Shown: piece by piece, positions 3,339 to 42,294 of the stretch
Position numbering within the stretch: position 1 is the stretch's first letter
Layout: each line of letters begins with the position of its first letter
IMG/VR virus record: IMGVR_UViG_3300016457_000036
Coordinates: 7,253 to 71,252 of that record
Source of the DNA: a virus
Taxonomy: Duplodnaviria > Heunggongvirae > Uroviricota > Caudoviricetes
Length of the DNA: 64,000 bases
Strand: one strand, 5' to 3'
The notes under the pieces: generated by a model
What the model was told of the DNA's origin: nothing
The model's input: only the letters and a program-made list of their open reading frames with translations
The model's database searches: none
Program-made: the position numbers and the translations under genes

Positions 3339-4073
3339 TTAGACTGCCTCACCTCTAATATCATTTTGCATCATAGTAAGAGCTTTTATAACAGCCTCTT
3401 TATCAGCTACTAAAAGCAATGAAGCGGTCATAGGTCTAATCATATCATACGCAATAGCAATACCTTGATCTCCGGGTATACGACTTTCCATCACAGGCTC
3501 GTTCTGCCTGTTTTTTAGATACTGCCATGTCTTATTCATGCTACATTGTTTACCTTCTATTTCAGCAAAACCTGTATTAAAGATCTCAGCGGCATGTGTC
3601 TGACTCTTGTCTACAATAAACTTAGCCTTCTTGTAACTTACAGGACTGATGTCCCACACACTTTTAGCATATTCTAACGCTGTAGGAATACCCATTAGCT
3701 TATGTGCATTACGTGTAACTTGAAATGCGGCGATGATAGCTTTCTGCCCTTTATTAATACTACGTCGAGTATTCTCGGCTAATACGATCTCGTACAACTC
3801 TTTAGGAGTACGGTCAAACTCAACACCTATATCATTCACAGTCGGACTGATGCCTAACTTGGCACATGAGATAGCTCTACGTCTACCATCAATGATTTTA
3901 CCCTTATACAGCATAATAGGCTGAAGCAGACCTGTGCGGTTAATGCTCTGTTCTAGCGTAGCTGTTTTAGGATCCAAAGGAACAATATTAGCCATAGTAT
4001 GTACATCATGTTCTCCTGCTGTAAGTATCTCGGATGGGTTAGTTGGATTAAAAGTATAGTTGTTACCAATCAT
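3339..4073 (-). CDS. ParB-like nuclease domain protein (244 aa)
   Basis: KGKIIDGRRRAISCAKLG resembles ParB/Srx N-terminal motif; AAGGA Shine-Dalgarno sequence; first gene after divergent region. Confidence 0.5.
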   Translation of the reverse strand: MIGNNYTFNPTNPSEILTAGEHDVHTMANIVPLDPKTATLEQSINRTGLLQPIMLYKGKIIDGRRRAISCAKLGISPTVNDIGVEFDRTPKELYEIVLAENTRRSINKGQKAIIAAFQVTRNAHKLMGIPTALEYAKSVWDISPVSYKKAKFIVDKSQTHAAEIFNTGFAEIEGKQCSMNKTWQYLKNRQNEPVMESRIPGDQGIAIAYDMIRPMTASLLLVADKEAVIKALTMMQNDIRGEAV

Positions 4074-4719
4074 GGAGGTATTCCTTCTCGTTTTCTAATT
4101 AGGAAAGTATATCTTATTGCCCATTATAGAATACTTAAGAGCAAAAGGTATACTACGAACTATGCTATACGGTATATGCTATACCTTTTCAATAATGGCC
4201 TGCAATAGTACTACCTATAAGAGGTAGGTACTTTTCCCCTATATCCTACACAACACTACACACCCATCTGACATAAAAATATATCTGCCCGGAGGGATTG
4301 CCTTGCCTGATCCTATTAGAGCACTCCTCGTCCAAATATACTGCTACTGAGCATGGGTAGGGCGAATAGGTGTGGGAAGAGTTGGTGGACTTATATGTAA
4401 ATTTTTGTGTAGCGTGAATGGGTGTAGTATTATGGCCCCCCAGGAATTTAGTGGGTGTACCCCCCCCATGTTCTGTAGATTAACGTTACTTAATTTTTAT
4501 GTGCCATGTAGCTCTGTGTGACACACACATTCTATAGAGTGGTGAACTATTTATATCTTTCATATCAATGAGGCCTGCCGTCCTCAAACTCCTGCTTGCT
4601 CTCTTGACGCAGTTACTCATCGTGCTACCCATACATCCTTGTAGTCCGTGTCATCATTGAGCTTATGGTGCGAAGAACATTAGCGTTTTCTTTAGCCTGT
4701 TAGACCCGAAGGACTTCCA

Positions 4720-4995
4720 ATGAGAAGAACTATTAAACCCCGTAAAGCATTAGGTAATGCAACCTCTGAAGTAGCCGTTACAATCGGTACTACTGCTACT
4801 GTCATCCGTAAGGCTGTTGAAGTTATGGCTATTGCTGTAGACGATATGAGATTTGAATCGGAGCAACAATCTGTTGTTGACCGTAAGCAAGCTGTCTTAG
4901 ATGCATTACTCGATGAGAAGGCTCTGCTTGCTGAAGCTTCTGCTCTTGGTGTGTCAGCTGAACTTACTAAGCGCATTAAGGCTCTTGGTCTGTAA
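4720..4995 (+). CDS. hypothetical protein (91 aa)
   Basis: AAGGA Shine-Dalgarno sequence 6 nt before ATG; first rightward gene after strand switch. Confidence 0.45.
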   Translation: MRRTIKPRKALGNATSEVAVTIGTTATVIRKAVEVMAIAVDDMRFESEQQSVVDRKQAVLDALLDEKALLAEASALGVSAELTKRIKALGL

Positions 4996-5032
4996 TAACA
5001 GGGTTCGTCCCTGCAAATGAAAGGAGCCTATT

Positions 5033-5287
5033 ATGGCTATCCGTGAAACTCTATTTTGGTACGACGAAGCTTCTGATGAGGTCAAAGAAATCTTTACAAC
5101 AGAGTTCTTTATGGCTACATCTTCTGTCTTTTGGAGTCGTGACCGTGAGGACTGCTTAGCTGAACAAGCTCTGCATCAGCCTATCGGTATCGACGAGGAT
5201 ATGGTGGACTCTCTTGAAGTCTCTCAACAAGACCGTTATGGTCAGAACGAGGACTACTTAATTGAGTGTGAACGTAATGAGCCTTAA
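5033..5287 (+). CDS. hypothetical acidic protein (84 aa)
   Basis: AAAGGAG Shine-Dalgarno sequence. Confidence 0.45.
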   Translation: MAIRETLFWYDEASDEVKEIFTTEFFMATSSVFWSRDREDCLAEQALHQPIGIDEDMVDSLEVSQQDRYGQNEDYLIECERNEP

Positions 5288-5386
5288 TGTTCTCATTGCC
5301 GTTGGGCTTTCTCTATGGGTAGTAATACCCTTCTCCCTGTTGCTCTTTTGAGCTTATGACGATAAAACCTCTTGAAAGGAGACGTT

Positions 5387-5455
5387 ATGATGTATGTATT
5401 ACCTGATGGTACGCTTATTTCATATGAAGAGTTCAAAGCTCTTCGTGGATTATAG
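5387..5455 (+). CDS. micro-ORF (22 aa, MMYVLPDGTLISYEEFKALRGL)
   Basis: perfect AAAGGAG Shine-Dalgarno sequence; followed by 6-bp hairpin AAGGGC(10 nt)GCCCTT at 5470-5491. Confidence 0.2.
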   Translation: MMYVLPDGTLISYEEFKALRGL

Positions 5456-6059
5456 GCTATACTTGTAGCAAGGGCTTAGTAATGTGCCCTTAAACATTAA
5501 CCGTGTTGCAATGACGTGAAGCAACAGAGTCGATAATCTCGGAGCAGTACTTATTACAAACCTGCTTAATCAAGGGCGTGAACATACGGACGTGGTATGA
5601 ACAGTAAGCCCTTTTTCTTTTTAGAGCTAGATCGGACACAGGTATTTCTGATAGTTAGTGGCTAACACAGGCTTCCGATAGTCTCAGAGGCTACACACGA
5701 ATCAGATAGACTGTTTACAGCTCACACACACTCAGATAGACAGACTCACACACACCTCATAGAGTACCCTACAAGCCATTTTAGCTCTCAGACGACCTCA
5801 GCTACTCGTTGGGTGTCGTTTGTTTGTCTTACGTGTAGAGAAGTGGTGTGGAGTGGCACGTTGTGGTAACACCCACACCCCATCAACCCACCCATCCCAC
5901 TATCCCTACCTATACACACACCTAATCTCACCCCAACTATAGAATTACCTACCAATAGTTATTCACATCTTATTCACATCTTGTCTATCCTATGTGAATA
6001 TCCTTGACGTTCCACCTTCTATGAGCTTATGTCGAATATCTTATTTATAGGAGGCTCAA

Positions 6060-6332
6060 ATGCCTAGAACCACCACCATTCCACCGTTTGCCCTTAGTGG
6101 CTATAACGTAATGTTCTTAGTCAGTTCGGAGTATTTCGATACATCAGTACCTACCGTTGTTTCTATTATGGAAGCTAGTGCTGAAATAGATAAGCTTGAA
6201 GACGCTTTCTGTACGGACGCTATCCAAAACTACACCACCTTCCTTATTTGTATGGACACTCATACAGTTACTGAAGTATGCAATACGGAGATATACAATC
6301 TTATCCGTTCTAATTTAGCCGAAGGAGAATAA
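6060..6332 (+). CDS. hypothetical protein (90 aa)
   Basis: AGGAGG Shine-Dalgarno sequence; follows conserved promoter-like motif. Confidence 0.45.
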   Translation: MPRTTTIPPFALSGYNVMFLVSSEYFDTSVPTVVSIMEASAEIDKLEDAFCTDAIQNYTTFLICMDTHTVTEVCNTEIYNLIRSNLAEGE

Positions 6333-6587
6333 ATGGCTCACAAAAGAATTGTACTTAGAAGTACACACGTTATCCTTGGTGACTTGACTGATACATTCAA
6401 AGTCAAGACTCCACAGGCTCGTATGCTTATCCGTACCTTACTTAAAGAAAAAGGTTCGCTTACTAGCACTAGCTATGCATACTTTTGTACCGAAAGTCTT
6501 GCCCATCATCGCTATGCTGATTACATTCTATTTGCTAACAGCATTAGAGCTATCTGTAATTCAGACATCAACACACCTACAACTTAG
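6333..6587 (+). CDS. hypothetical protein (84 aa)
   Basis: GAAGGAG Shine-Dalgarno sequence. Confidence 0.45.
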   Translation: MAHKRIVLRSTHVILGDLTDTFKVKTPQARMLIRTLLKEKGSLTSTSYAYFCTESLAHHRYADYILFANSIRAICNSDINTPTT

Positions 6588-6610
6588 TAGGTTTACATAA
6601 AGGAGCCGTA

Positions 6611-6874
6611 ATGGTTTACATCGTAGAAGACGCTTATATGTACGAACGTTCTACCCTCGTTGTTGTAACAGACACACACGAACTTGCCGAAGAGTTTGTG
6701 CAGGACTACATCAGAAAGAACTACTCATATCAAGAGCAGTTCGACCTTGAGTGGGCAGAAGAAGGTACTTGTCCCGACCGTGTTATGCTTATTAATGCAC
6801 AGCACGTTGAGACAGCTACTTCACTTGTTCCTATTAATCCCGACTATCAGTATCAGCCAAAGGAGGCAGTATGA
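6611..6874 (+). CDS. hypothetical protein (87 aa)
   Basis: AAAGGAG Shine-Dalgarno sequence. Confidence 0.45.
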   Translation: MVYIVEDAYMYERSTLVVVTDTHELAEEFVQDYIRKNYSYQEQFDLEWAEEGTCPDRVMLINAQHVETATSLVPINPDYQYQPKEAV

Positions 6875-7146
6875 ACCCCGAACTGAAACCACTCACCCTC
6901 ACTATCTCATCTTATGGTAATCACTATAAGAAGTTACGTGCTTCACTCCGTCACTCACAGAACGCTGTTGAAGAGAAGATACTTCAGTATAAGCACGACC
7001 ATATCAGTAATGATACGGAAGAAGACTCTCACGAATACGAGTCATATATGGAACTATTCAGTACTCGTGATTTCTATCGTAAGCTACTTGCCGACCTAGA
7101 AGCACAGTATAAAATAGCACAACCTCACCTTGTAGAAGAATACTAA
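6871..7146 (+). CDS. hypothetical protein (91 aa)
   Basis: AAGGAGG Shine-Dalgarno sequence; ATGA overlap with upstream gene. Confidence 0.45.
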   Translation: MNPELKPLTLTISSYGNHYKKLRASLRHSQNAVEEKILQYKHDHISNDTEEDSHEYESYMELFSTRDFYRKLLADLEAQYKIAQPHLVEEY

Positions 7147-7171: not shown

Positions 7172-7287
7172 GTACGTTGTTCTTTTATCTTGAGTACAAG
7201 CATCCTTGCCCTTTAGATTTCTATGAGCTTTTAGAGAGATTAATTATTATCTCAGTAACGGAGTAAACCGTACAAATCATAATCCCA

Positions 7288-11552: not shown

Positions 11553-13319
11553 ATGGCAGAACAATTCAACTTTAAAGAACTAGATAAGCACCTCAGAGCC
11601 GAGTGGCTTGCTAAACGTCCTGACTTCGTACAAGCATTTATTGATAACATTCAAAACATCGCTGATACGCATATGACTGAAGCTCTAGCAGTTGACAGAT
11701 GGGCTGAGTACATCGATATTGAGCGTCAAGCACCTCATATTTATTACTATCTTGCTTCTTGTCAAGATAGTATGCCTATTCAAAATATGATCGGCGGCAT
11801 GGCTACACTTATCAATGATCATAATGAACGTGACCTACCTACAGTATGGAACACGCACCAAATCGCATCAGAGATTATCTTCGCATTGAATGGTATCTTC
11901 ACTACTGTACAGTTGACATACAATGGAAAGTATGTTGTACGTAGCCTACTACGCGATCCTGAGCTCTCTGAGACACTCATGTATCCATTACCATTAGCTG
12001 AGCCTGCTTATGCCTCACGTGCTCTTGGAGCGTATGCTTGGAATATCACTAATGATGATGCTCTGAATGTATTGAACGCTATTCCTATGACAATCATGCA
12101 GTTTCCTGAGCAGATGCCATTCATCGGTGCTAACCCATCGGACGCAGACAAGGAACTAATGGTCAAGTATGAAGTACGTAAGGCGCTACAGCCTAGCTTT
12201 AGTGGTAAACGTATCTTCTATAATTGGCACTCAGACTACAGAGGTCGTATGTCACCTGGTGCATATCACTTCAACCCGCATGGAAATGAGTATGAGAAAT
12301 CTATCATTGCCTTCGCTGAACCTGAGAAAGTATCTTGGGCAGGTGTGATGGAATACCGTAAAGCCTTAGCTCGCTGTGCAGGTCTTGGAAAAGATACTGA
12401 CATGGAGAAACTAAAGTGGTACGCACAAAACTCACTCACCAACTTCGCTGATGTAATATGGAAAGAGCCACATACTGCTGTCTCTATCCTAACTGCATTT
12501 GAGCAGATCAAGAACACAGGACGTACTAATATCCCTATTGAACTTGACTCTACTAATTCACAGTTGCAAATGGTAGCGGTACTAACCGGTGACATGCAGA
12601 CAGCACTTACTTGTAACGTCGTACCTGATGGTGATAAGATCGCTGATGCCTATGGTATCTTGGCTGAGATTATGACTAAGATCTCCGGCAAACTCTATAC
12701 TCGTCATGACGTTAAATACGCAATGATGGTAGCAGGTTATGGCGGTGGAAAAGATGTAGTAATCGCAGAGTTCGTGGACGCTATGGACAATGACTACGAT
12801 GTTGGTGAAACATACGAGACATTCCTAGCTGCTATGGAATATGTGAGCCCTGCTTCCGGTCTACTTAAAGACACATTCGACAATCTATGGAAGGACGATT
12901 GGACTGAGGTTACTTGGACTCTACCTGATGGATTTGTAGCTTGCTATAAGCCTGTTCAGACTATGACTCTAACTCTACGTCCATTCGGTATCGACATCGA
13001 GTGTCTTGCTACAGTTAATCAAGCTATCGACTTCTCTACTGCACTCTACGTGAATGTAATTCACTCAGTTGATGCATACGTAGCTCGACAGAAAGTTATC
13101 CGTGCTAAGGGTAAATCATGGTCTATTCATGACGGCTTTCCAATGAGAGCAAACTTCGTATCTACAGGTGTTCAGAACTACAAGGACATCTTAGGTGAAA
13201 TCGCAGACTCGCGCCTATTAGAGGACATCTTAACTGAGATCTCCGGATCATACGTACCTACATTTGGAAAACAATTCGGCAACGATGCAATTCAATTAGG
13301 CAACTACGCTATCTCTTAA
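11553..13319 (+). CDS. large hypothetical protein (588 aa)
   Basis: AAAGGAACC Shine-Dalgarno sequence; long uninterrupted ORF; no motif recognised. Confidence 0.6.
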   Translation: MAEQFNFKELDKHLRAEWLAKRPDFVQAFIDNIQNIADTHMTEALAVDRWAEYIDIERQAPHIYYYLASCQDSMPIQNMIGGMATLINDHNERDLPTVWNTHQIASEIIFALNGIFTTVQLTYNGKYVVRSLLRDPELSETLMYPLPLAEPAYASRALGAYAWNITNDDALNVLNAIPMTIMQFPEQMPFIGANPSDADKELMVKYEVRKALQPSFSGKRIFYNWHSDYRGRMSPGAYHFNPHGNEYEKSIIAFAEPEKVSWAGVMEYRKALARCAGLGKDTDMEKLKWYAQNSLTNFADVIWKEPHTAVSILTAFEQIKNTGRTNIPIELDSTNSQLQMVAVLTGDMQTALTCNVVPDGDKIADAYGILAEIMTKISGKLYTRHDVKYAMMVAGYGGGKDVVIAEFVDAMDNDYDVGETYETFLAAMEYVSPASGLLKDTFDNLWKDDWTEVTWTLPDGFVACYKPVQTMTLTLRPFGIDIECLATVNQAIDFSTALYVNVIHSVDAYVARQKVIRAKGKSWSIHDGFPMRANFVSTGVQNYKDILGEIADSRLLEDILTEISGSYVPTFGKQFGNDAIQLGNYAIS

Positions 13320-33971: not shown

Positions 33972-34286
33972 ATGGCAATCATTACTACTTCAATTTCCGG
34001 ACCTAAAAAAGGTATCCCACATCGCCTCAGAGCAGGTGTAGTTATTAGAACACCTGAACGCGCAGAAACAGATGGCGAGTATTATGAACGTAATTTAGGC
34101 TTCTTCAACAATAGTGCTAACGTCCCTACTACTTGCCCTAAGTGTGAAGCTGTGCTAATACAGCGTATGAAACGTCTCAGTCCTGGTAACATCACAAGTG
34201 TTACTCTAAACTGTTCTAACAAAAAATGTAAACGTGTGTATGTATCTGCATACCCGGCTAAAAAGGTAAACGCTTATGGAAACTAA
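33972..34286 (+). CDS. zinc-ribbon protein (104 aa)
   Basis: AAAGGACAAATAATG; CPKCEA...CSNKKCKRV. Confidence 0.4.
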   Translation: MAIITTSISGPKKGIPHRLRAGVVIRTPERAETDGEYYERNLGFFNNSANVPTTCPKCEAVLIQRMKRLSPGNITSVTLNCSNKKCKRVYVSAYPAKKVNAYGN

Positions 34287-35136
34287 ACAAAAAACAGTGT
34301 GTGTATATCACGGTAACTGTCTTGATGGATTTACTGCTGCATGGGTTCTACACTCAGCCTTAAATCCTTTTACTGATTTAACACTTGTAAAAGGTGCATA
34401 CACAGAAAAACTTGATGTAGATCAATTTATTGATGCTGACGTATACTTTGTAGACTTCTCAGTTAAAGCTCCTGAAATGCAAGCAATCGCTGCAGTAGCC
34501 AATAAAGTAGTTATTCTTGATCACCACGCTTCAGCAGAACGTGAACTACAAATCGTAGCTGAAAAAACCGGTAATGTTCACATCGAATTTGATATGAAAC
34601 GCTCAGGCGCTATGATTACATGGGATTATTTTTTCCCTTCTTCAGAAGCTCCTACTCTTATTAAAATCGTACAAGATCGTGATCTATGGCTATTTAAAAA
34701 TCAGTATACTAAAGCACTTACTGCTTATATGTTTACACTTGAACAGACTATTGATGTATGGAACGATCTTCTTACTGATGTAAATTCAGGTAAAGCTATT
34801 GACATGGGTCAAGTACTTCTTGATGCACATGACAAAAATGTAGCTGCTATCATCGATGGCTGTACTCGTGAAGTTTTACTCGGAGAGCATAAAGTCAATT
34901 TAACTAATGCTCATTGGATGTATGCCTCTGATATAGGTCATAAAACTATTGGTGACAACCTATTCTCAATGTCGTATTTTATCAACTCAGATGGGGTATA
35001 TTCATACTCTCTACGCGCTGATAATAATTTCGACTGCTCTGTATTAGCTGAAACTTACAGAGGTGGTGGGCATCCTAATGCTGCAGGTTTCTCATCAGTT
35101 TTACCGGTATGGACTGAGATCAACGAAGAACTGTAA
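34276..35136 (+). CDS. DHH/DHHA1 family phosphoesterase (NrnA/RecJ-like, 286 aa)
   Basis: VCVYHGNCLDGFTAAWVL (motif I), ILDHHASAE (DHH), GGGHPNAAGF (DHHA1). Confidence 0.75.
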   Translation: METKQKTVCVYHGNCLDGFTAAWVLHSALNPFTDLTLVKGAYTEKLDVDQFIDADVYFVDFSVKAPEMQAIAAVANKVVILDHHASAERELQIVAEKTGNVHIEFDMKRSGAMITWDYFFPSSEAPTLIKIVQDRDLWLFKNQYTKALTAYMFTLEQTIDVWNDLLTDVNSGKAIDMGQVLLDAHDKNVAAIIDGCTREVLLGEHKVNLTNAHWMYASDIGHKTIGDNLFSMSYFINSDGVYSYSLRADNNFDCSVLAETYRGGGHPNAAGFSSVLPVWTEINEEL

Positions 35137-35865: not shown

Positions 35866-35940
35866 CGAGGTATGGCCAAGTGGTAAGGCGGCGGCTTTTG
35901 GTGCCGTTATTCGGGGGTTCGAGTCCCTCTACCTCTACCA
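35866..35940 (+). tRNA. tRNA-Gln (anticodon TTG)
   Basis: cloverleaf: D-arm GCCAAGTGGTAAGGC, anticodon stem GCGGC/GCCGT loop TTTTGGT, T-arm GGGGG-TTCGAGT-CCCTC, CCA encoded; resembles E. coli tRNA-Gln. Confidence 0.8.
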
Positions 35941-36106
35941 TATGGTCGAAAGACCACCATGACTAAACAACAGGTAACTTCAGAAAGCTTATAGTGAGCT
36001 ACGTTGAAGATTAAAAGCATCACGTACTAATGGATCACTAATCCATGAACGCAACGTCATCCTGTACTGCATACTAAGTTACAGTAGAGAATTGTTTAGT
36101 CTAAAT

Positions 36107-36190
36107 GTAAAGTAAAAGTTGTTCGGATACAGCACCGAGACTGTAAATCTCGTCTTTAGGGGAGTGGTTCGAGTCCACTACTTTACACCA
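36107..36190 (+). tRNA. tRNA-Tyr (anticodon GTA), long D/variable region
   Basis: acceptor GTAAAGT/ACTTTAC, anticodon stem CGAGA/TCTCG loop CTGTAAA, T-arm AGTGG-TTCGAGT-CCACT, CCA encoded; D-arm fold ambiguous. Confidence 0.6.
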
Positions 36191-36195
36191 TATGT

Positions 36196-36271
36196 TACGT
36201 TATAGCTCAGTTGGTAGAGCGTTTCGCTGTTAACGAAAATGTCCCTGGTTCGAGTCCAGGTTACGTAGCCA
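36196..36271 (+). tRNA. tRNA-Asn (anticodon GTT)
   Basis: TAGCTCAGTTGGTAGAGC D-arm, TTTCG-CTGTTAA-CGAAA anticodon arm, CCTGG-TTCGAGT-CCAGG T-arm, CCA encoded. Confidence 0.85.
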
Positions 36272-36443
36272 CATGATCGCAAGATCACCAAAAAAACAGG
36301 TACTCACCTGTACAAAAAGAGTAGCTAAATTTTTGACAACTTGGAAAGACAAGTCAGTAGTCCTCTCGAAGCCGAGGAGCAAATAGTTATTTAAGGGTAG
36401 AGCCTATATGCCTAGTCATACAATGATAACTAGCTACATAAGT

Positions 36444-36519
36444 GGGGAATTAGCTCAGCTGGGAGAGCGTCTGCCTTGCACGTAGAAGGTCAGCGGTTCG
36501 ATCCCGCTATTCTCCACCA
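36444..36519 (+). tRNA. tRNA-Ala (anticodon TGC)
   Basis: GGGGAAT acceptor with G3:U70, anticodon loop CTTGCAC, T-arm AGCGG-TTCGATC-CCGCT; near-identical architecture to E. coli tRNA-Ala. Confidence 0.85.
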
Positions 36520-36725
36520 AATATGGGACGAAAGTTAGCGAATACTGTCGGAGTCATGACCTTCAGGAGTGAGTAAAAATCTCACAGATCCCACCACTTA
36601 AATATGGTCCGACTAGAAATAGATTACCATGCGCGGTAAGGGAAGCCTAAAACTTTCTCGGCCACCACCTAAATATGGTCGTTACACGATCACCATCACA
36701 CACAAATTAAATAAGGAACTACCCC

Positions 36726-37487
36726 ATGTCAAAACCTGTATTACACGAATTACTTGCCGTAGAGCAAGGACTATCTGAAACAGCTAATCGTATCACTAAA
36801 GAGACGATCAAAACACTATCTACTAAGCAATCTATCTTTGCCGGTATGAACAAAGCACACACTATCTTCGCAGAAGATCAGCAACACCTGGTTCAAGCTA
36901 CAGAGTACAAAGAAGTACAATCTACTGCAGATGAGCAGATCAACTTTCTAAACACAGAGATCGCTCGTTATTGGGACGTTACTCTACAAAAAGAAGAGGC
37001 AAACCAACGTGCTAATGCAGACATCATTATTGATGGTACTACTCTCGCTACAAATGTACCTTCTATCGTTTTACTAGGTCTTGAAAAGAAACTTACTTCT
37101 CTTCTAGCAGTTTATAACGCATTACCTACACTTGATGCTGCTACAGCTTGGGAAAGTGATCCATCTGCATCTAAAGATGGTATCTTTCGTACTAAGTATC
37201 CTGAAGAGCGTCAGCACAACGTAACTGAGCTAAAGTATATCATTGCTGCACCTGCAACTGAGCGTCATCCTGCACAAGTCAAAGAGCAAAGTATTACTGA
37301 TGTTATCGGTAAATATGTGATCACTACTTTCTCAGGTGCTATCACTTCATACGACAAAGCAGCACGTCTTGAGAAGCTTACTAAACTGATCCGTGCTGTG
37401 AAAAAAGCTCGTCAACGTGCCAACAACACAGAAGTAAACACAGATCTTACTATCGGTGCTACTATGCTAAAATACATTAACGATTAA
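36726..37487 (+). CDS. hypothetical protein (253 aa) embedded in stable-RNA island
   Basis: ATAAGGAACTACCCCATG; long clean ORF. Confidence 0.5.
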   Translation: MSKPVLHELLAVEQGLSETANRITKETIKTLSTKQSIFAGMNKAHTIFAEDQQHLVQATEYKEVQSTADEQINFLNTEIARYWDVTLQKEEANQRANADIIIDGTTLATNVPSIVLLGLEKKLTSLLAVYNALPTLDAATAWESDPSASKDGIFRTKYPEERQHNVTELKYIIAAPATERHPAQVKEQSITDVIGKYVITTFSGAITSYDKAARLEKLTKLIRAVKKARQRANNTEVNTDLTIGATMLKYIND

Positions 37488-37806
37488 TTCGTTAGTGGGT
37501 AAACGAAAGTTTGCCACATTAAGTGTATTTACAATAGCTATGTAACGTAGGCATTAAATGATAGTATATGTCTCAAAGCACAGCTAGGAAACTATCCTTG
37601 TTCATTCGGCTATGCATAGTTGTATGATCACCTGTAAATACATTTACTGTGGTAAATTTATCTTTACATTTATTCACCCTACTATACTCTAACTGAGGTG
37701 GTAGGTTATTTTCATTCTTATTTTATCACCACGATAAATTAAGTTCTGAAGACCTTTAAAAAAGAGTACACCACTCGCGCAGAACTACTTCTTTTAGTTA
37801 ACGTAC

Positions 37807-37868
37807 ATGGGTTCGAGTCCCATTCCGGCCACCATTTAATACGGCCGGGTGATGTAAGCGGCTTACAT
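37807..37868 (+). ncRNA. permuted tRNA-like element P1: 3' half (T-arm + TCCGGCC-A-CCA) followed by matching 5' acceptor GGCCGGG
   Basis: ATGGG-TTCGAGT-CCCAT T-arm, acceptor 3' strand, ACCATTTAATAC spacer, then complementary 5' strand and 8-bp palindrome ATGTAAGCGGCTTACAT. Confidence 0.4.
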
Positions 37869-37940
37869 CGTTAATATAATTTATCTTAAAAAGTAGTTAC
37901 TAGCAACTAATAGGTTGAACATCATTTAACACAAAAATTT

Positions 37941-38010
37941 GAAGGTTCGAGTCCTTCCCCGCCTACCATTACTTTACAGGCGGGTAGTCGAATTGGTTAT
38001 AGACGTTTGT
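37941..38010 (+). ncRNA. permuted tRNA-like element P2: T-arm + CCCGCCT-A-CCA, spacer, 5' half AGGCGGG-TA-GTCG...
   Basis: GAAGG-TTCGAGT-CCTTC T-arm; 5' acceptor AGGCGGG perfectly complementary 13 nt downstream followed by D-arm-like GTCGAATTGGTTATAGAC. Confidence 0.4.
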
Positions 38011-38019
38011 ATAATGCAC

Positions 38020-38052
38020 GACAGAGGAAATAAAGGTTATTATTCCTCTGTC
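38020..38052 (+). other. strong hairpin (10-bp stem GACAGAGGAA / TTCCTCTGTC, 13-nt loop)
   Basis: perfect 10-bp inverted repeat in ORF-free region. Confidence 0.6.
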
Positions 38053-38297
38053 TCAAAACATAGCTCTAGGGGTATATACGTATTGTAGTACTTAGTAGTG
38101 TGGATCACGGACTACAATCCCGATCTCGTATTTTGTCTCGTCCCGCAAGGATGTACAGACAGAGCGACAAAACGCTGCGGTGTACCCTGAGAGGTGTGTT
38201 TTAAAGCCACCACAAGATTCTGTAGTAATAGTCTCTAATGCTGTAAGTATGGCACTACTTGTAATAGTGTCAGGATCACTTACTGTATTACGTCCGA

Positions 38298-38419
38298 CAT
38301 GACGTTAAACATGACATTACTTTGTGATTAAAGTAGTTACCGAGAACGTAGACTAATAATCTACTCAGTACCGGACCGGCATGACGTTAAACATGACATT
38401 ACTTTGTGATTAAAGTAGT
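38298..38419 (+). repeat. two perfect 40-bp direct repeats (CATGACGTTAAACATGACATTACTTTGTGATTAAAGTAGT) 42 bp apart
   Basis: copies at 38298-38337 and 38380-38419; each contains ACTTT-GTGATT-AAAGT inverted repeat. Confidence 0.7.
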
Positions 38420-38736
38420 CAGTACAGACTTAAAAAACATAATCATATATTCACGATTATTTTTATTGTGACTGATAGGATAGACTATCTCCTGCTGCGG
38501 ATTCGCGGTGGGGTAACATATAAGGTAATAATTATGAGTAATCTTAAAAATGCAATCGTACAACAGTTAATAACAGAAGACGCTGCAATCTATAAAAACA
38601 ATGATAAATATATCCACATCTACGGACGAGAAGATGCAGATTGGGGTATAGATATTTACGATGGAATGGATTATAATGTTCCTTCATTTTCCTGTATAAT
38701 GGAAAAAGGCACAGCAGCTGAAGCTTTCGATTACGC

Positions 38737-38811
38737 GGGTGAGTCGTCTAACGGTTAGGGCCCGCCTCTCATAAAGGCGGTATCAGAGTTCGATTCTCTG
38801 CTTACCCACCA
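38737..38811 (+). tRNA. tRNA-Met/Ile2 (anticodon CAT), elongator-type
   Basis: acceptor GGGTGAG/CTTACCC (G1-C72 paired), anticodon arm CGCCT-CTCATAA-AGGCG, T-arm CAGAG-TTCGATT-CTCTG, CCA encoded. Confidence 0.7.
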
Positions 38812-39262
38812 TTTAGCACAGCCTAGTGCATAGAGCCTACATGGTTAAAGGCTTGAGTATATGTAAGAAATACCTATCTTAACATAACTCTTAATCTATG
38901 TACTATGGTGTGCTTTGAGGCATACACAACGAGTTCTTCTTTGATGTAACTCAGCATAAAGTTCTCAGCTCCCACCGGCCCAGTTTAATCAGCAGCGATG
39001 GCCTATAACTCAGAAATGATTAGCGAGACTCAGGTTCCTCTTTTAGGCTCCTTCCTTGTCTCGCGATTAAGCATACCTTTCATTACATTATGTGTACTGA
39101 CAGGTGTGCTTTTTTGGTAATTATGTACACATGGTGGAGATTTCTAGTAGTGGCGGAATTCAATAAAGACGCTAAATAACAGTTCCTCCGTTCAGAGTGC
39201 TGTATGAGCTAACTTGAAAATTAGCAATTCATAGGTGGAAGTCCTGTGACTACTTTATATAT

Positions 39263-39610
39263 GGGCGCAACATGGCTTCGACAGGAAATTGGTCCCACCC
39301 CGAATGATACAAGGTATGATACTACCTCAACAGATCATTAACTTAAATGTAAACAACATGAATTTTAATCCTACTGCAGAGCTTGCTGCTGCGTAGTGTG
39401 GACCGGGACAGACACATAACCAACTTGTCCCACACTTTAAGTCTTTGCCTTGTTGCAGAGCCTAGCACCGTAAGTTCACGCTAGTAACCAATTCTTACAT
39501 CCTTGTTTTACAGTTTTACGCATATTGACTGTGATAAATTGCACGTATCGTGAAGTTCGGTTAAAAAGATGATTTTTTGGACTCGGGTTCGATACCCGAT
39601 GCGTCCACCA
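39263..39610 (+). ncRNA. ssrA: tmRNA (ssrA-like transfer-messenger RNA), tag reading frame ...NFNPTAELAAA-stop
   Basis: 5' GGGCGCA-ACATGG-CTTCGAC-AGG and 3' GGAC-TCGGG-TTCGATA-CCCGA-TGCGTCC-A-CCA match tmRNA consensus; internal ORF gca gag ctt gct gct gcg tag ends 39396. Confidence 0.75.
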
Positions 39611-39762
39611 TACGCTATCCCCTTGATACTATTATGTAGTATGAATGGGGTTGCGAAGCTGCAGATGCAACCACTAAAATCTTATACGCAGCATAGTACT
39701 TCTTCATTTCTATTAAAACTATGAAGAACGCTCCCGGGTATGGTCGGCTAGGGAGAGTAGTG

Positions 39763-39785
39763 TTGACCTTTGTTTATGATATAAT
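39763..39785 (+). promoter_or_regulatory. promoter candidate: TTGACC ... extended -10 TGATATAAT
   Basis: perfect TGnTATAAT at 39777-39785; -35-like TTGACC at 39763 (short spacer). Confidence 0.4.
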
Positions 39786-39824
39786 TTTCTCAGTTCCTTT
39801 ATACATGTTAAGTATATAATTGTA

Positions 39825-40021
39825 GTTACTCCGCCTTCGGGCATCACATTTGGGATATGACTTACTGCAATTTCTAACTTAGCATTTATAAGGGAATATG
39901 TACACAGTTACTCCTGCTGTTTTCAGCAATTCACTGCTAATGATTTTACTGTGCACACTCTCCCTGTTAGTCTTCAATAAACTCAAGTTTATGGTATTGG
40001 TTACTCCGCCTTCGGGCACCA
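39825..40021 (+). repeat. repeated leader element GTTACTCCGCCTTCGGGCAYCA (x2; GTTACTCC x3) each preceded by AT-rich -10-like box
   Basis: copies at 39825-39846 and 40000-40021, third GTTACTCC at 39907; contain C-UUCG-G tetraloop. Confidence 0.5.
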
Positions 40022-40098
40022 AACTTCTAATTTGATCTTACCTCTACTACTCACTTGAGTTTATTGAACACTATCACTAAAACTAAAAGGAAATCCCC

Positions 40099-42294
40099 AT
40101 GAAAAACTTAGCACTACAACGCCTAATCTATGGCATGACAAACACTATCGTAATCGAGTCTACCGGTCCTAAAGAAGTCGTAACTGAAATCGAGGCTGTA
40201 CGTTCTAGCATGGCTATCGAGGGCTTTATCTTCCGTCCGGGTTTCGCTAACACTACTGAACTAACTGACTATACAGAAGCTGATTGGGCTGCTATGTATG
40301 CACAATATTCTTTAACATATGGATGGAGTACACTTTACACAGCCCGTACAGGTAATAATCCTGTTACTGTACTTGATGCATACTTTACTGATCTTGGCAA
40401 TATCTTTTCTCCGCTTGAAGTAGCGCCTAAAGCGTATTATGTGGCTGAGCCTGTTTTCTATGAAAAAGTATTGACTGACATCGCTGAGTCAAAAATTGTA
40501 TTACGTACACATCAGATCGAGATCTTAAATCTTATGCCTATCGAAATACTTGCTAAAATTTATGAGAATGTCGTATTCACCATCATAGAAACTCGTATTC
40601 TGTTTCTAAAACGTCTCATTACTGAAGGTAAAGAAATCGCTGCATTTACTACACCTGAAGAGATTGTAAAATTCGTCATAGCTGTCTTTCCTAAGAACAC
40701 AGAGCCATACACAGGACAAGTCACTAACGACATATTAAAAGCAATCGAAGTAAAAATTCCTACATCTATGCGTAAAGTTATTGTTCGCTCTATTCAAAAG
40801 ATGAGCTACTTTAAAGCTATCAGAGGCATGAAGAAAAACAAAAACTTTTGGAAACGTCTATTTAAGCAACTTGCATGGCAATCCGAAGAAAAAATGATCG
40901 CTACTGCTCGCTTTCAAAACTACCTTGATATTAAAGGTACTGTCTTCAATGAGACTATCATCACACCTCGCTCAGACATCGAACAGTATCGTCGTGAAGG
41001 TAACTTAGAAACTGCTTTTATTGTTGAGATGAAAAACACAGGCGGGATGTTACGAAATCTTATGTCATACCTACGTTATCCGATCGGATCTACTTATGCT
41101 AAAAAAGTAAGCATGGCACCTGATGCAAAAGAACACGGTATTGCTATGTACTTTAATAAAAAAGTACAGGAAGAAGTACGTGCTACTGTCGTTCATTCTG
41201 ACATTACCAATGTCTTAGCATCTGACGAATTTATGAAGTGTCTTACTCAGGCTAACTCTAAGCTACTATGGCAAGTACTCACACTTCTACAGGACAAGAA
41301 AAACACAGTCCCTAAATCTGTTCGTGTTGTAAACGACACTAAGATCAAATACTCAAAAGCTTTACCGGGTATCGATCCTAAAATGACTGAGCTTGCTAAA
41401 AAAGCCATTAAAAAGGCTATCAAAAAAGTGAAACGTGCTGAAAATGCATCTCTTGGTAAAGTTTACATAGACAAAACACTTAAAAACTACGCTATGCAGT
41501 TCTCAGGTCGCTCAGAAACGTCAATCTCACTATCAGGTGAATACTTGTCTCCGGGAAGTAAAATTGACCTTACAGACCTTCTGAAGGGTGAAGATAAAAT
41601 CTTACGTATGGGTATTGCATGGACAGGTGCTTCATGTGATGTTGACCATGCTCTAAATATCTTCGGTATGCGTTCTATCTATTACGGTAATCCTACCTTA
41701 GCAGATACAGAAGGTCGTGTAGTTATCTCATCTTCAGGTGATATTACATCATGTAGTCCTGGTCTATTCAGTACAGAGATTATCGATATTGATGTAGATC
41801 AACTTGCTACGTCTAACGTAGAGAAGATCTTTAATTCTGCTCATATGTTTGCAGGTCCTACTTTCGATAAAATTGAATGTTATTGGTTCATGAATATCAT
41901 CGATAAAAAAGATCGTATCCTTGAAAAACGTAAAGTTGCAATCGCACTTGATGCAATGCAATATGCTATTAAGCTTCAAGAACCTACTCGTGCACAGGTA
42001 GGTTTCTCTGTCGATCTGAAAAAGAAAGAACTTGAAGTTTTAAATCTTCCATCAAAACAATCGCAGTATAATAATGCTGCTACTTGTAAAGAAGATTTTG
42101 AGAAGCTGTTAGCTGAACGTCCTAAGCAAAAATCATTGTATAAAGCAATGAAAACTGTTATCGCTAAAGATCAGCTGACTGATAATATTTTAGAAGCTGA
42201 CTTGATTATTTCTGCTGAACCTGATCAGCCTGCAGGCATTACTGTCTTGCATCCGGGCAGAGATGCAGTAGCACTACAAGAAATTATCTTTTAG
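40099..42294 (+). CDS. large hypothetical protein (731 aa)
   Basis: AAAAGGAAATCCCCATG; long clean ORF; no motif recognised. Confidence 0.6.
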   Translation: MKNLALQRLIYGMTNTIVIESTGPKEVVTEIEAVRSSMAIEGFIFRPGFANTTELTDYTEADWAAMYAQYSLTYGWSTLYTARTGNNPVTVLDAYFTDLGNIFSPLEVAPKAYYVAEPVFYEKVLTDIAESKIVLRTHQIEILNLMPIEILAKIYENVVFTIIETRILFLKRLITEGKEIAAFTTPEEIVKFVIAVFPKNTEPYTGQVTNDILKAIEVKIPTSMRKVIVRSIQKMSYFKAIRGMKKNKNFWKRLFKQLAWQSEEKMIATARFQNYLDIKGTVFNETIITPRSDIEQYRREGNLETAFIVEMKNTGGMLRNLMSYLRYPIGSTYAKKVSMAPDAKEHGIAMYFNKKVQEEVRATVVHSDITNVLASDEFMKCLTQANSKLLWQVLTLLQDKKNTVPKSVRVVNDTKIKYSKALPGIDPKMTELAKKAIKKAIKKVKRAENASLGKVYIDKTLKNYAMQFSGRSETSISLSGEYLSPGSKIDLTDLLKGEDKILRMGIAWTGASCDVDHALNIFGMRSIYYGNPTLADTEGRVVISSSGDITSCSPGLFSTEIIDIDVDQLATSNVEKIFNSAHMFAGPTFDKIECYWFMNIIDKKDRILEKRKVAIALDAMQYAIKLQEPTRAQVGFSVDLKKKELEVLNLPSKQSQYNNAATCKEDFEKLLAERPKQKSLYKAMKTVIAKDQLTDNILEADLIISAEPDQPAGITVLHPGRDAVALQEIIF

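What the first reader, a model, noticed from the sequence alone, without database searches (positions are those of the whole stretch)
5690..6010. CA-/C-rich tract with CAGATAGAC repeats and TTATTCACATC iterons next to an early promoter-like motif
Bases 5690-5760 contain repeated CAGATAGAC/CACACA units. Bases 5866-5945 form a strongly C-rich plus strand (ACCCACACCCCATCAACCCACCCATCCCACTATCCC...). Bases 5959-6000 carry two tandem TTATTCACATC repeats plus an inverted ATGTGAATA that overlap the TTGACG box at 6004. The 770-bp stretch is ORF-free. This is a candidate replication origin, packaging site, or operator array for a repressor controlling the downstream early operon.
Basis: seen in the sequence. 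Interest (0 to 1): 0.55.

Follow-up and report, generated by a model that had tools for sequence, protein, structure and literature searches.

The report
Phage early control region, likely terminal-repeat edge
This 600-base gene-free stretch lies near the probable left end of a large N4-related phage genome; it holds transcription stop signals, a conserved repeat array that in related phages sits at the edge of the terminal repeat, and a conserved early promoter, so it is a new example of a known kind of region rather than a new system.

Summary
The described features are real and far beyond chance. The C tract (5866-5957) is the most C-rich, G-poorest stretch of the 64-kb window.

The window belongs to a ~119-kb N4-related podophage. 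It encodes a split virion RNA polymerase, an N4 RNAPII-like polymerase and a weak gp1 homologue. Its nearest isolates are Alteromonas phages R22Y and AD45.

The gap 5456-6059 reads, in order:
- terminator T1;
- terminator T2;
- a conserved GT-rich block;
- the C tract;
- the TTATTCACATC repeats;
- a promoter-like motif, ATCCTTG-N15-TGAGCTTATG.

That motif recurs four times in the early region and at the four orthologous sites of a ~70%-identical relative.

The same layout occurs in LIT1 and LUZ7. There, and in JA-1 and R22Y, GATAG repeats lie just before the mapped inner edge of the direct terminal repeat.

My best reading is an early inter-operon control region that probably holds the terminal-repeat edge, where the right genome end is cut. 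The predicted repeat runs from ~4430 to 5741-5866. No read data could confirm this.

An origin is not supported. The TTATTCACATC repeats (DnaA-box-like) are absent from the relative.

The parts
5388..5455 (+). Conserved 22-codon micro-ORF (MMYVLPDGTLISYEEFKALRGL). It is the last gene of the first early unit and bounds the non-coding gap on the left.
   Evidence: It has an RBS and an ATG. It is 79% identical in nucleotides to L005, with 10 synonymous and 1 non-synonymous codon change.
5572..5622 (+). Terminator-like element T1: a long interrupted hairpin (AAGGGC..GCCCTT with inner CATAC/GTATG) followed by TTTTTCTTTTT.
   Evidence: The fold is -12.6 kcal/mol. L005 has a hairpin of equal energy with a different inner stem (GTGACTC/GAGTCA), but its tail is TTTAAAACTTTTT. 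The z-score is only -1.1, so this is a moderate call.
5636..5765 (+). Array of five units ACAC(A)-N5-9-(G/C)ATAG. Cores lie at 5650, 5677, 5705, 5735 and 5759, spaced 24-30 nt.
   Evidence: On the + strand the unit pattern is otherwise found only once nearby (4521-4539) and once loosely at 30427. L005 also has five units in the same order, although the array is only 46% identical. GATAG background is 0.5 per kb.
5789..5829 (+). Terminator-like hairpin T2: a 14-pair stem (CAGACGACCUCAGC / GUUGGG.GUCGUUUG) followed by UUUGUCU.
   Evidence: The fold is -19.1 kcal/mol with z = -3.6. The consensus scan also flags it. The outer stem CAGACG/CGTTTG is conserved in L005, and the region is 71% identical.
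5833..5866 (+). GT-rich block GTGTAGAGAAGTGGTGTGGAGTGGCACGTTGTGG. It is the best conserved non-coding piece and contains AAGTGGTGTGG.
   Evidence: Over 5836-5873 it is 84% identical to L005, against 51% for the whole gap. Composition is 48% G and 6% C. The motif AAKKGGTGTRG occurs 3 times in the window against 0.16 expected. One of the other copies lies in the conserved block at 4417-4427.
5867..5957 (+). C-rich, G-poor tract (45% C, 1% G).
   Evidence: It is the compositional extreme of the whole window. Its composition is conserved in L005, but its sequence is not (42% identity, with indels that are not multiples of 3). LIT1 and LUZ7 show the same switch from negative to positive C-minus-G at the mapped terminal-repeat edge.
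5959..6000 (+). Two tandem TTATTCACATC repeats (5959-5980) plus the inverted copy ATGTGAATA (5992-6000). Each direct copy fits the DnaA-box consensus TTATNCACA.
   Evidence: The hairpin potential gives z = -2.8. The repeats fall in alignment gaps in L005, so they are lineage-specific.
6000..6031 (+). Early promoter-like motif ATCCTTGACG-N12-TGAGCTTATG (site P_c), 29 nt upstream of the start codon of gene 6060-6332. The RBS GGAGG is at 6050-6054.
   Evidence: The same motif lies at 4635-4664, 5327-5355 and 7202-7230, all on the + strand upstream of genes. It also lies at four orthologous places in L015. The region is 78% identical to L005.
4402..4467 (+). Context outside the finding: the predicted left genome end. 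A 29-nt block, TTTTTGTGTAGCGTGAATGGGTGTAGTAT (4402-4430), is identical in four lineages. It is followed by the only C7-or-longer run of the window (4460-4467).
   Evidence: See alignment A5. A C7-C10 run lies 28-45 nt from the mapped left end in N4, G7C, LIT1, LUZ7, R22Y and JA-1.
4515..4539 (+). Context: a sixth CACACA..ATAGAG unit. Here it is joined to a hairpin with a 6-bp stem and a 3-nt loop (TGTGTG-aca-CACACA), which makes it a candidate N4-type hairpin promoter.
   Evidence: It is partly conserved in L005, L013 and L009.
4720..4995 (+). Context: a 91-aa protein, a weak homologue of N4 gp1. In N4, gp1 is the first gene at the left genome end.
   Evidence: It matches phrog_5020 with E = 1.4e-3. 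The L005 orthologue scores 1.7e-4 and N4 gp1 itself scores 1.3e-46. Direct BLASTP against N4 gp1 is not significant.

Best explanation
The gap 5456-6059 is the non-coding junction between the first and second early transcription units. It lies about 1-1.6 kb inside the predicted left end of an N4-related podophage that carries a virion RNA polymerase.

Shown:
- The gap carries two terminator-like hairpins, T1 and T2.
- Between them lies a conserved array of five ACACA..GATAG units.
- A conserved GT-rich block then switches abruptly into an extreme C-rich tract.
- A lineage-conserved early promoter-like motif (ATCCTTG-N15-TGAGCTTATG) sits in front of gene 6060.

Inferred:
- The GATAG array and the G-to-C switch mark the inner (right-hand) edge of the direct terminal repeat. 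This is the place where the packaging enzyme cuts the concatemer to make the right genome end.
- The left end is predicted at ~4424-4432, about 30 nt before the poly-C run. That gives a repeat of about 1.3-1.44 kb holding the whole first early unit: the gp1-like gene, the 84-aa gene and the micro-ORF.
- The array would then be the recognition platform for terminase or an accessory protein.
- T1 and T2 would stop the first early unit.
- The promoter motif would restart early transcription, probably by the injected virion polymerase. This would happen on DNA that enters the cell first.
- The TTATTCACATC repeats are a lineage-specific add-on next to that promoter, possibly a regulator or DnaA site.
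For: Identity of the phage:
- The window has a 588-aa RNAP that is 24-26% identical to N4 RNAP1 plus RNAP2.
- Its primase is 36-38% identical to those of Alteromonas phages R22Y, PT11-V19 and AD45.
- An 1868-aa gene just beyond the window matches the virion RNAP family phrog_2206 (E = 4.5e-62). It sits beside a 2854-aa gene.
- There is a weak gp1 homologue at 4720.
- Genes switch from the - strand to the + strand at 4.1-4.7 kb, as at the joined ends of N4-type genomes.

Conservation of the region:
- The relative L005 keeps T1, five array units, T2, the GT block (84%), the C-rich composition and the promoter motif (78%). The whole gap is only 51% identical.
- The promoter motif occurs four times, and at four orthologous sites in the relative.

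Same layout in phages with mapped ends:
- LIT1 and LUZ7 (ends mapped by run-off sequencing) read: gp1, terminator, CACACA repeats, G-rich block with GATAG repeats, repeat edge, C-rich tract, promoter.
- Their C-minus-G profiles match the window's.
- GATAG repeats lie 0-30 nt before the mapped repeat edge in LIT1, LUZ7, JA-1 and R22Y, and about 50-65 nt before the approximate edge in G7C.
- G7C's repeat (1-1160) also holds gp1 plus two small genes and stops just before the next promoter.

Left-end signature:
- A poly-C run lies 28-45 nt from the left end in six phages.
- The window's only C7-or-longer run is at 4460-4467. It follows a 29-nt block that is identical in four lineages.
- A shared motif, AAKKGGTGTRG, sits in both conserved blocks, at 4417 and 5841.

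Repeat length: N4-like terminal repeats range from 335 to 1974 bp (PMC3670811, PMC11705849).
Against: No reads could be mapped, so neither genome end is observed.

Evidence for a shorter repeat ending inside the gp1-like gene:
- In N4, IME11 and R22Y the repeat is only 335-440 bp and ends inside gp1 (PMC3896407). R22Y is the closest isolate with mapped ends.
- The window has GCT|GTAGA at 4834-4840, resembling R22Y's edge GGCT|GTAGA.
- Two contigs start exactly at 4834 with no variant within 1.7 kb.

Weaknesses of the comparative argument:
- GATAG is only 5 nt, and N4 and IME11 have no GATAG at their right ends.
- In the window the array and the G-to-C switch are about 100 nt apart with T2 between them. 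In LIT1 and LUZ7 the GATAG repeats lie inside the G-rich block. The predicted edge is therefore only bracketed, at 5741-5866.
- The motif shared by the two conserved blocks was defined after seeing them.
- All large contigs read straight through the region. That is expected for a collapsed repeat, but it gives no positive support.
- The promoter motif has no conserved hairpin, unlike known N4-type virion-polymerase promoters. Its -10 region is poor for sigma-70. The polymerase that uses it is therefore unknown.
Confidence: 0.45

Rival explanations
1. The region is purely transcriptional. The terminal repeat is short (about 400 bp, from ~4430 to ~4835) and ends inside the gp1-like gene, as in N4, IME11 and R22Y. 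The gap then only separates early units: tandem terminators T1 and T2 followed by promoter P_c. The ACACA..GATAG units are binding sites for an early regulator, or decayed copies of the hairpin promoter at 4515-4539.
For: - R22Y, N4 and IME11 have repeats of 335-440 bp ending inside gp1 (PMC3896407).
- GCT|GTAGA at 4834-4840 resembles R22Y's edge.
- Contigs L003 and L004 start exactly at 4834 with no nearby variant.
- The one array-like unit outside the gap (4515-4539) carries an N4-style hairpin with a 6-bp stem and a 3-nt loop, placed ahead of ATAGAG.
- N4 and G7C have GATAG motifs between early terminators and the next promoter.
- Terminators and promoter are conserved.
Against: - 4834 has no GATAG upstream.
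- A second break in the same sample, at 4111|4112, fits a strain-level replacement or deletion of 4112-4833 better than a genome end.
- Other samples read through 4834.
- Units 1 and 3-5 of the array have no hairpin.
- This reading does not explain why the GT-block-to-C-tract switch is shared with the mapped repeat edges of LIT1 and LUZ7.
Confidence: 0.3
2. The region is a replication origin. The five-unit array acts as iterons for a phage initiator. The three TTATTCACA-type boxes bind host DnaA.
For: - The five repeated units are conserved in number in the relative.
- Two exact copies and one 8-of-9 copy of the DnaA-box consensus TTATNCACA lie within 43 bp.
- The location is non-coding and close to the genome end.
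- In N4 the virion polymerase is needed for replication. This is from my own recollection of Guinta et al. 1986 and was not checked here.
Against: - There is no AT-rich unwinding stretch: the gap is 44% G+C against 39% for the window.
- Unit spacing is irregular (24-30 nt) and off helical phase.
- No initiator gene lies beside it.
- There is no GC-skew inflection, and the AT-skew change simply follows the coding-strand switch.
- The DnaA-like boxes are absent from L005.
- The window-wide count of such boxes is at chance level: 4 against 3.7 expected.
- As far as I recall, N4-type replication does not depend on DnaA. This was not checked.
Confidence: 0.07
3. The TTATTCACATC pair plus the inverted ATGTGAATA form an operator for a dimeric regulator, from the phage or the host, that controls promoter P_c. 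This covers only that sub-element and can hold together with the explanations above.
For: - There are three exact 9-nt copies, two direct and one inverted, ending 4 nt before the -35-like box.
- They are unique in the window.
- The palindrome has hairpin or cruciform potential, z = -2.8.
Against: - They are not present in the ~70% relative, which keeps the promoter itself.
- There is no second site elsewhere in the window that would indicate a regulon.
- A recent 11-nt tandem duplication would produce the direct pair by a single event.
Confidence: 0.15
4. The C tract is a Rho-loading (rut) site that insulates promoter P_c from read-through transcription.
For: The tract is 91 nt with 45% C and 1% G. 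It lies downstream of two imperfect terminators, and its composition is conserved in L005, LIT1 and LUZ7.
Against: - If early transcription is carried out by the single-subunit virion polymerase, Rho coupling is not expected.
- Similar C-rich sequence lies at N4-type left ends, upstream of the first promoter, where nothing is transcribed.
Confidence: 0.08

Closest known systems
Left-terminal region of Pseudomonas N4-like phages LIT1 and LUZ7 (Schitoviridae). Their terminal repeats of 655 and 660 bp were mapped by run-off sequencing.
   Same: The order of elements is the same: gp1, hairpin terminator, CACACA short repeats, a G-rich block with GATAG repeats, a C-rich G-poor tract, a promoter, then the next early gene. 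The C-minus-G profile also matches.
   Different: - There is no sequence homology.
- In the window the GATAG cores lie inside the CA-rich array, about 100 nt before the G-to-C switch, with a second terminator between them.
- LIT1 and LUZ7 promoters are hairpins with 3-nt loops. The window's promoter motif has no conserved hairpin.
- The predicted repeat is about twice as long.
- The window's genome ends are not mapped.
Coliphage N4 and G7C early region: promoters P1-P3, terminators and terminal repeat.
   Same: - A poly-C run lies about 30 nt from the left end.
- A gp1 homologue is the first gene.
- Terminator-promoter modules follow one another.
- GATAG motifs lie between an early terminator and the next promoter.
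- The promoter core ends in CTTATGG, as in N4 P1 and G7C P1/P2 (CAACTTATGGA, CGTCTTATGGA).
- G7C's repeat (1-1160) holds gp1 plus two small genes.
   Different: - N4's repeat (390-440 bp) ends inside gp1.
- N4 promoters need a 5-7-bp hairpin, which is absent here.
- N4 RNAPII has two subunits, whereas the window has a single 588-aa protein.
- The genome is about 119 kb against 70 kb.
Alteromonas phages vB_AmeP-R22Y (terminal repeat 335 bp by PhageTerm) and vB_AmaP_AD45-P1..P4.
   Same: - They are the closest isolates by primase (36-38% aa).
- AD45 also has a split virion polymerase.
- The signature GGTA-C7 lies near the left end (R22Y) or in the strand-switch region (AD45-P1, at 34563).
- A GATAG lies 7 nt before R22Y's repeat edge.
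- AD45-P1 has CTCACACTCACACCGATAGG just after its first early terminator.
   Different: - R22Y's repeat ends inside its first gene, and its intergenic region is short with no array.
- AD45's published 437-bp repeat is a 434-bp overlap of the record ends inside a gene, so it is not comparable.
T7/T3 concatemer-junction region: terminal repeat flanked by arrays of short repeats, followed by strong early promoters.
   Same: It works alike in outline. A C-rich top strand and short direct repeats lie beside the terminal repeat, immediately ahead of the promoters that drive the first-entering DNA. This comparison is from my own knowledge of the T7 sequence.
   Different: The phage family, terminase and repeat units (CCTAAAG-type) are all different. 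No homology was tested. This is an analogy only.

Membership tests
N4-type (Schitoviridae-like) left-terminal early region with direct terminal repeat | The phage encodes a giant virion RNA polymerase, an RNAPII-type polymerase and gp1. | tested here: met
   - An 1868-aa gene matches phrog_2206, virion RNA polymerase (E = 4.5e-62).
- The 588-aa RNAP matches N4 RNAP1 and RNAP2.
- The gp1 match is weak (E = 1.4e-3 and 1.7e-4).
N4-type (Schitoviridae-like) left-terminal early region with direct terminal repeat | The region lies at the junction of leftward late genes and rightward small early genes. | tested here: met
   Genes are on the - strand up to 4073 and on the + strand from 4720. AD45-P1 has the same layout at 34.2-34.6 kb.
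N4-type (Schitoviridae-like) left-terminal early region with direct terminal repeat | There are fixed physical ends with a two-fold coverage plateau, i.e. a direct terminal repeat. | not testable with these tools
   No reads were available. Contigs of about 118.2-119.1 kb with different start points show only that the genome assembles as a circle.
N4-type (Schitoviridae-like) left-terminal early region with direct terminal repeat | A poly-C run lies about 30 nt inside the left end. | tested here: met
   The only C7-or-longer run of the window is at 4460-4467. It is conserved in four lineages. The signature is seen in six phages with mapped ends. Here the end itself is predicted, not observed.
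N4-type (Schitoviridae-like) left-terminal early region with direct terminal repeat | GATAG repeats and a G-rich-to-C-rich switch lie at the inner edge of the repeat. This pattern was derived here from LIT1, LUZ7, JA-1 and R22Y. | tested here: inconclusive
   The motifs and the switch are present and conserved. The edge is not mapped, and N4 and IME11 lack the motif.
N4 virion-RNA-polymerase hairpin promoter | A 4-7-bp stem with a 3-nt loop is centred about 11-14 nt upstream of a G start. | tested here: not met
   The four ATCCTTG..TGAGCTTATG sites and their four orthologues share no hairpin. Only the separate element at 4515-4529 has one.
Sigma-70 promoter | -35 TTGACA and -10 TATAAT hexamers separated by 16-18 bp. 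| tested here: not met
   TTGACG is a good -35, but the best -10 candidates are TTATGT and TATGTC. The scan does not report the site.
Iteron / DnaA-box replication origin | Regularly spaced iterons, an AT-rich unwinding element, an adjacent initiator gene and conserved DnaA boxes. | tested here: not met
   - Spacing is irregular, 24-30 nt.
- There is no AT-rich stretch.
- No initiator gene was recognised.
- The DnaA-like boxes are absent from the relative.
- There is no skew inflection.
Known RNA families (Rfam) | A match to a covariance model. | tested here: not met
   There was no hit at E <= 1 over 4000-7000. The whole-gap fold gives z = -2.2 only.

The most novel reading that the evidence does not exclude
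The composite 'CACA repeats, then GATAG repeats, then a G-rich-to-C-rich switch', together with the poly-C run about 30 nt from the left end, may be a conserved and so far undescribed end-recognition code of the terminases of the whole N4 supergroup (Schitoviridae plus the large Alteromonas-type podophages).

If so, both genome ends and the repeat length could be read from sequence alone. Deposited genomes such as AD45-P1 would also need their ends re-assigned.
Probability: 0.3. Interest if true: 0.55.

Novelty: new member of a known kind. Interest (0 to 1): 0.38.

Why it matters
If the reading is right, it places the physical ends and the first-entering DNA of an uncultured ~119-kb N4-related phage. 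It also defines that phage's early promoter class, which lacks the hairpin thought typical of N4-type virion-polymerase promoters.

It further points to a simple sequence signature for N4-type genome ends: a poly-C run near the left end and GATAG repeats at the inner repeat edge. That signature could be used to orient and trim metagenomic assemblies and to check published termini.

For phage biology at large it is an incremental result. The kind of region is known, and nothing here suggests a new mechanism.

Tried and rejected
- DNA searches of the gap and of the first 20 kb against 50,697 phage records found nothing.
- Looking for relatives was largely unproductive. I tried the 90-aa and 91-aa neighbour proteins, the RNAP, the conserved GT block and the promoter motif against IMG/VR and JGI metagenomes.
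  - Only one diverged lineage carrying the gap turned up, L005/L015/L016.
  - The 17 other hits to the promoter pattern were chance matches.
  - Two further lineages (P0003 and P0004 types) have contigs that stop before the gap.
- Contig ends as a proxy for genome ends were rejected. Ends scatter over 4834, ~5080, ~5120, ~5290, 5603 and ~6050.
- A 120,543-bp contig could have shown both repeat copies, but the look-up tool would not display it.
- Regions 4074-4719 and 5456-6059 are not significantly similar overall: local alignment score 21 against a shuffled mean of 21.
- AAGCACTTAAA, a recurrent 11-mer, lies inside coding sequence (..EALK..) and is not a promoter.
- The array unit pattern essentially does not recur on the + strand outside 4500-5800, so it is not a general middle or late promoter.
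- TGGCAC-N5 in the GT block does not fit sigma-54, because it has no GC at -12 (read directly from the sequence).
- Strain comparison gave no information. All 14 loci of this phage are identical over 5388-6358.
- The LUZ7 transcript-start table could not be read, because no supplement is held.
Full report
OBSERVATION

- TCAGATAGAC is exact at 5702-5711 and 5732-5741. CTCACACACAC is exact at 5721-5731 and 5745-5755.
- TTATTCACATC is exact at 5959-5969 and 5970-5980. Its 9-nt inverted copy lies at 5992-6000. These are the only exact copies in the window.
- The C tract is the compositional extreme of the whole 64 kb. It has 46% C and 2.5% G over 5866-5945. All 23 of the 63,920 80-nt windows with at least 37 C lie here, and it is the only place with 2 or fewer G per 80 nt.

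Corrections to the observation:
- The repeat array is larger than described. It has five units of ACAC(A)-N5-9-(G/C)ATAG between 5636 and 5765.
- The 770-bp 'ORF-free' stretch holds a real 22-codon ORF at 5388-5455, with 10 synonymous against 1 non-synonymous change versus the relative. The non-coding gap is therefore 5456-6059.
- TTGACG (6004-6009) has no usable -10 hexamer, and the sigma-70 scan does not call it.

WHAT GENOME THIS IS

There is no DNA match in 50,697 phage records. The gene content identifies an N4-related podophage.
- A 588-aa RNA polymerase is 24-26% identical to N4 RNAP1 plus RNAP2.
- The primase is 36-38% identical to those of Alteromonas phages R22Y, PT11-V19 and AD45.
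- Six tRNAs and a tmRNA are present.
- Just beyond the window an 1868-aa gene matches the virion RNA polymerase family (phrog_2206, E = 4.5e-62). It lies next to a 2854-aa gene. This looks like the split virion polymerase reported for AD45 (PMC3821669).

Identical or near-identical contigs of 118,165 to 119,116 bp, with different start points, show a genome of about 119 kb that assembles as a circle.

Genes run leftward up to 4073 and rightward from 4720. AD45-P1 has the same arrangement at 34.2-34.6 kb. It is also the arrangement obtained when the two ends of an N4-type genome are joined.

The first rightward gene (4720-4995, 91 aa) is a weak homologue of N4 gp1, the first gene at the N4 left end. 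It matches phrog_5020 at E = 1.4e-3, its L005 orthologue at 1.7e-4, and N4 gp1 itself at 1.3e-46. Direct BLASTP is not significant.

ANATOMY OF THE GAP AND ITS CONSERVATION

Only one diverged lineage carrying the gap could be found (L005 = L015, plus L016; about 70% nucleotide identity). The whole gap is 51% identical to it. The parts differ sharply.
- T1 (5572-5622) is 60% identical. It is a hairpin followed by a T run. L005 has a different inner stem of equal energy, but its tail is less T-rich.
- The array is 46% identical, yet L005 also has five units in the same order.
- T2 (5789-5829) is 71% identical. It has a 14-pair stem, -19.1 kcal/mol, z = -3.6, and a U-rich tail.
- The GT-rich block (5836-5873) is 84% identical, the best-conserved piece.
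- The C tract is 42% identical. Its composition is kept but its sequence is not, and its indels are not multiples of three, so it is not coding.
- The TTATTCACATC region is 36% identical, because the repeats fall in alignment gaps in L005.
- The promoter-like region (6000-6049) is 78% identical.

All 14 loci of this phage's own population are identical over 5388-6358. There was no Rfam hit. The whole-gap fold is only mildly structured, z = -2.2.

THE PROMOTER

TTGACG is part of ATCCTTG-N14-16-TGAGCTT(ATG).
- The motif occurs at 4635, 5327 (two mismatches), 6000 and 7202. All copies are on the + strand, about 30-55 nt upstream of start codons, and two follow terminators.
- The relative has it at the four orthologous places. 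This is a phylogenetic footprint of a promoter class confined to the first 3 kb of the early region.
- Its 3' core ends in CTTATGG, as do N4 P1 and G7C P1/P2 after their hairpins. No hairpin is conserved here, however.
- The sigma-70 geometry is poor.

I infer that this is the early promoter, probably used by the injected virion polymerase. The polymerase assignment is not shown.

COMPARISON WITH PHAGES WHOSE ENDS ARE MAPPED

LIT1 and LUZ7 have terminal repeats of 655 and 660 bp, mapped by run-off sequencing (PMC3715699). They read: gp1, terminator, three CACACA repeats, a G-rich block with GATAG repeats, the repeat edge, a C-rich G-poor tract, a promoter, then the next gene. Their C-minus-G profiles match those of the window and L005: positive, then negative, then strongly positive.

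GATAG repeats lie immediately before the mapped inner edge of the repeat in four phages:
- LIT1: ..GGATAGGGGAGATAGTGGGGTCTGGCA|
- LUZ7: ..GGATAGTGGGAGAGTTTGGGGACTGTGTAC|
- JA-1: ..GAGATAGTGGAGAGATAGGGGATAG| (repeat of about 1974 bp by coverage, PMC3670811)
- R22Y: ..GCGATAGAGAGGCT| (335 bp by PhageTerm, PMC11705849)

In G7C the motifs lie about 50-65 nt before the approximate edge. Background GATAG frequency is 0.5-1 per kb. AD45-P1 has CTCACACTCACACCGATAGG right after its first early terminator.

The window's array, with four GATAG and one CATAG in 115 nt, is the richest example of this element.

THE LEFT END

N4, G7C, LIT1, LUZ7, R22Y and JA-1 all carry a C7-C10 run 28-45 nt from the mapped left end.

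The window's only C7-or-longer run is at 4460-4467. It is conserved in four lineages. It follows a 29-nt block (4402-4430) that is 100% identical in all four, against a background of about 72%.

This predicts the left end at ~4424-4432. That is about 1.3 kb upstream of the finding, in the strand-switch region.

The two best-conserved non-coding blocks, at 4402-4430 and 5833-5873, are both GT-rich. Both are followed by C-rich sequence, and both contain AAKKGGTGTRG (3 matches in the window against 0.16 expected; the pattern was defined after the fact).

In LIT1 and LUZ7 the sequences around the two cut sites also resemble each other: GCAGTACT|T against GGCA|GTGC in LIT1, and GCAGTACTT|CAG against GTGTAC|TGCAC in LUZ7.

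BEST EXPLANATION

The gap is the junction between the first early unit and the second early unit. The first unit runs from promoter P_a through the gp1-like gene, the 84-aa gene and the micro-ORF to T1.

Most likely the gap also contains the inner edge of a terminal repeat of about 1.3-1.44 kb, running from ~4430 to 5741-5866. The GATAG array and the G-to-C switch would then be the signal for the right-end cut.

G7C offers a precedent. Its repeat (1-1160) likewise holds gp1 plus two small genes and stops just before the next promoter.

- Shown: the anatomy, its conservation, the recurrence of the promoter motif, and the shared layout with phages whose ends are mapped.
- Inferred: both genome ends, the role of the array in packaging, and which polymerase uses the promoter.

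MAIN RIVAL AND AN UNEXPLAINED OBSERVATION

N4, IME11 and R22Y have short repeats that end inside gp1 (PMC3896407). The window has GCT|GTAGA at 4834-4840, resembling R22Y's edge GGCT|GTAGA.

Two contigs, L003 and L004, start exactly at 4834 and are identical to the window for more than 1.7 kb. They come from two different assemblers, so the break does not depend on k-mer size.

In the same sample another contig ends at 4111. The pair of breaks is more simply explained by a genotype in which 4112-4833 is replaced or deleted. I could not retrieve the alternative junction. Other samples read through.

I give the short-repeat, purely transcriptional reading 0.3.

OTHER READINGS

Replication origin: not supported.
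- There is no AT-rich element.
- Unit spacing is irregular.
- No initiator gene is nearby.
- There is no skew inflection.

TTATTCACATC repeats: they fit the DnaA-box consensus TTATNCACA. They are absent from the relative, and the window-wide count of such boxes is at chance level. They may be a lineage-specific operator or DnaA site beside the promoter. This cannot be decided here.

C tract: it has the composition of a Rho-loading site. Similar C-rich DNA lies upstream of the first promoter at N4-type ends, where nothing is transcribed.

VERDICT

The kind of region is known, namely the left-terminal early region of N4-type phages. This is a new member of that kind with some variant traits: a long GATAG array, a promoter motif without a hairpin, and a 119-kb genome.

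Interest is moderate to low. The end-signature idea (poly-C plus GATAG) is the part worth testing further.

Noticed in passing
window 4402-4467: A 29-nt block (TTTTTGTGTAGCGTGAATGGGTGTAGTAT) is 100% identical in four diverged lineages. It is followed by the only C7-or-longer run of the window. Six N4-type phages with mapped ends carry a poly-C run 28-45 nt from the left end, so this is the predicted left genome end.
   Followed up: partly
window 4111|4112 and 4833|4834: Contigs from SRR14000033 and JGI 3300017593 stop or start exactly at these two positions, although they are identical to the window for kilobases beyond. This points to a co-occurring genotype in which the 722-bp segment (strand-switch region plus the first 38 codons of the gp1-like gene) is replaced or deleted. 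It could instead reflect a physical end at 4834.
   Followed up: partly
window 4515-4539: A perfect hairpin with a 6-bp stem and a 3-nt loop (TGTGTG-aca-CACACA) is followed by TTCTATAGAG. It looks like an N4-type virion-polymerase hairpin promoter and is related to the array units. Smaller hairpins occupy the same place in three relatives.
   Followed up: partly
window 4135-4200; L025 (AD45-P1) 34260-34460: The strand-switch region carries GGTATAC/GCTATAC repeats that form an inverted repeat (AAAGGTATA..TATACCTTT). AD45-P1 has six or seven GTATAAC/GTTATAC repeats at the same place. This may be a shared operator or late-promoter element.
   Followed up: no
L025/L065 (NC_021532, AD45-P1) record ends; L025 34563-34569: The published 437-bp terminal repeat of AD45-P1 is a 434-bp identical overlap of the record's two ends, lying inside one split CDS. 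It is therefore probably an assembly overlap. The N4/R22Y-type signature GGTACCCCCCC sits at 34563, 60 nt before the first rightward gene, which suggests that the real end is there.
   Followed up: partly
window 5388-5455: A 22-codon ORF (MMYVLPDGTLISYEEFKALRGL) has its own promoter-like motif and RBS and is under clear purifying selection. Its function is unknown.
   Followed up: partly
window 39263-39610 and 35866-42491: The phage carries a tmRNA gene (tag VNNMNFNPTAELAAA) within a cluster of six tRNA genes. Further tRNA-like words (GGTTCGAGTCC at 37810, 37944 and 42540; TAGCTCAGTTGGTAGAGC at 42583) lie outside the called genes. They may be uncalled or decayed tRNAs.
   Followed up: no
window 11553-13319: The middle-type RNA polymerase is a single 588-aa protein that aligns to both N4 RNAP1 and RNAP2. 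It is a fused or unsplit form of N4's two-subunit RNAPII.
   Followed up: no
L066 11930-21479 (about 0.2-10 kb beyond the window end): Two giant leftward genes of 1868 and 2854 aa lie here. The first matches the C-terminal third of the N4 virion RNA polymerase, so this appears to be a split virion polymerase as in AD45.
   Followed up: partly
L064 (JA-1) 67810-67860: Vibrio phage JA-1 has T10, then four ACACAT-type repeats, then AGAGATAGTT upstream of a small gene inside its terminal repeat. This is another copy of the CACA-then-GATAG composite.
   Followed up: no
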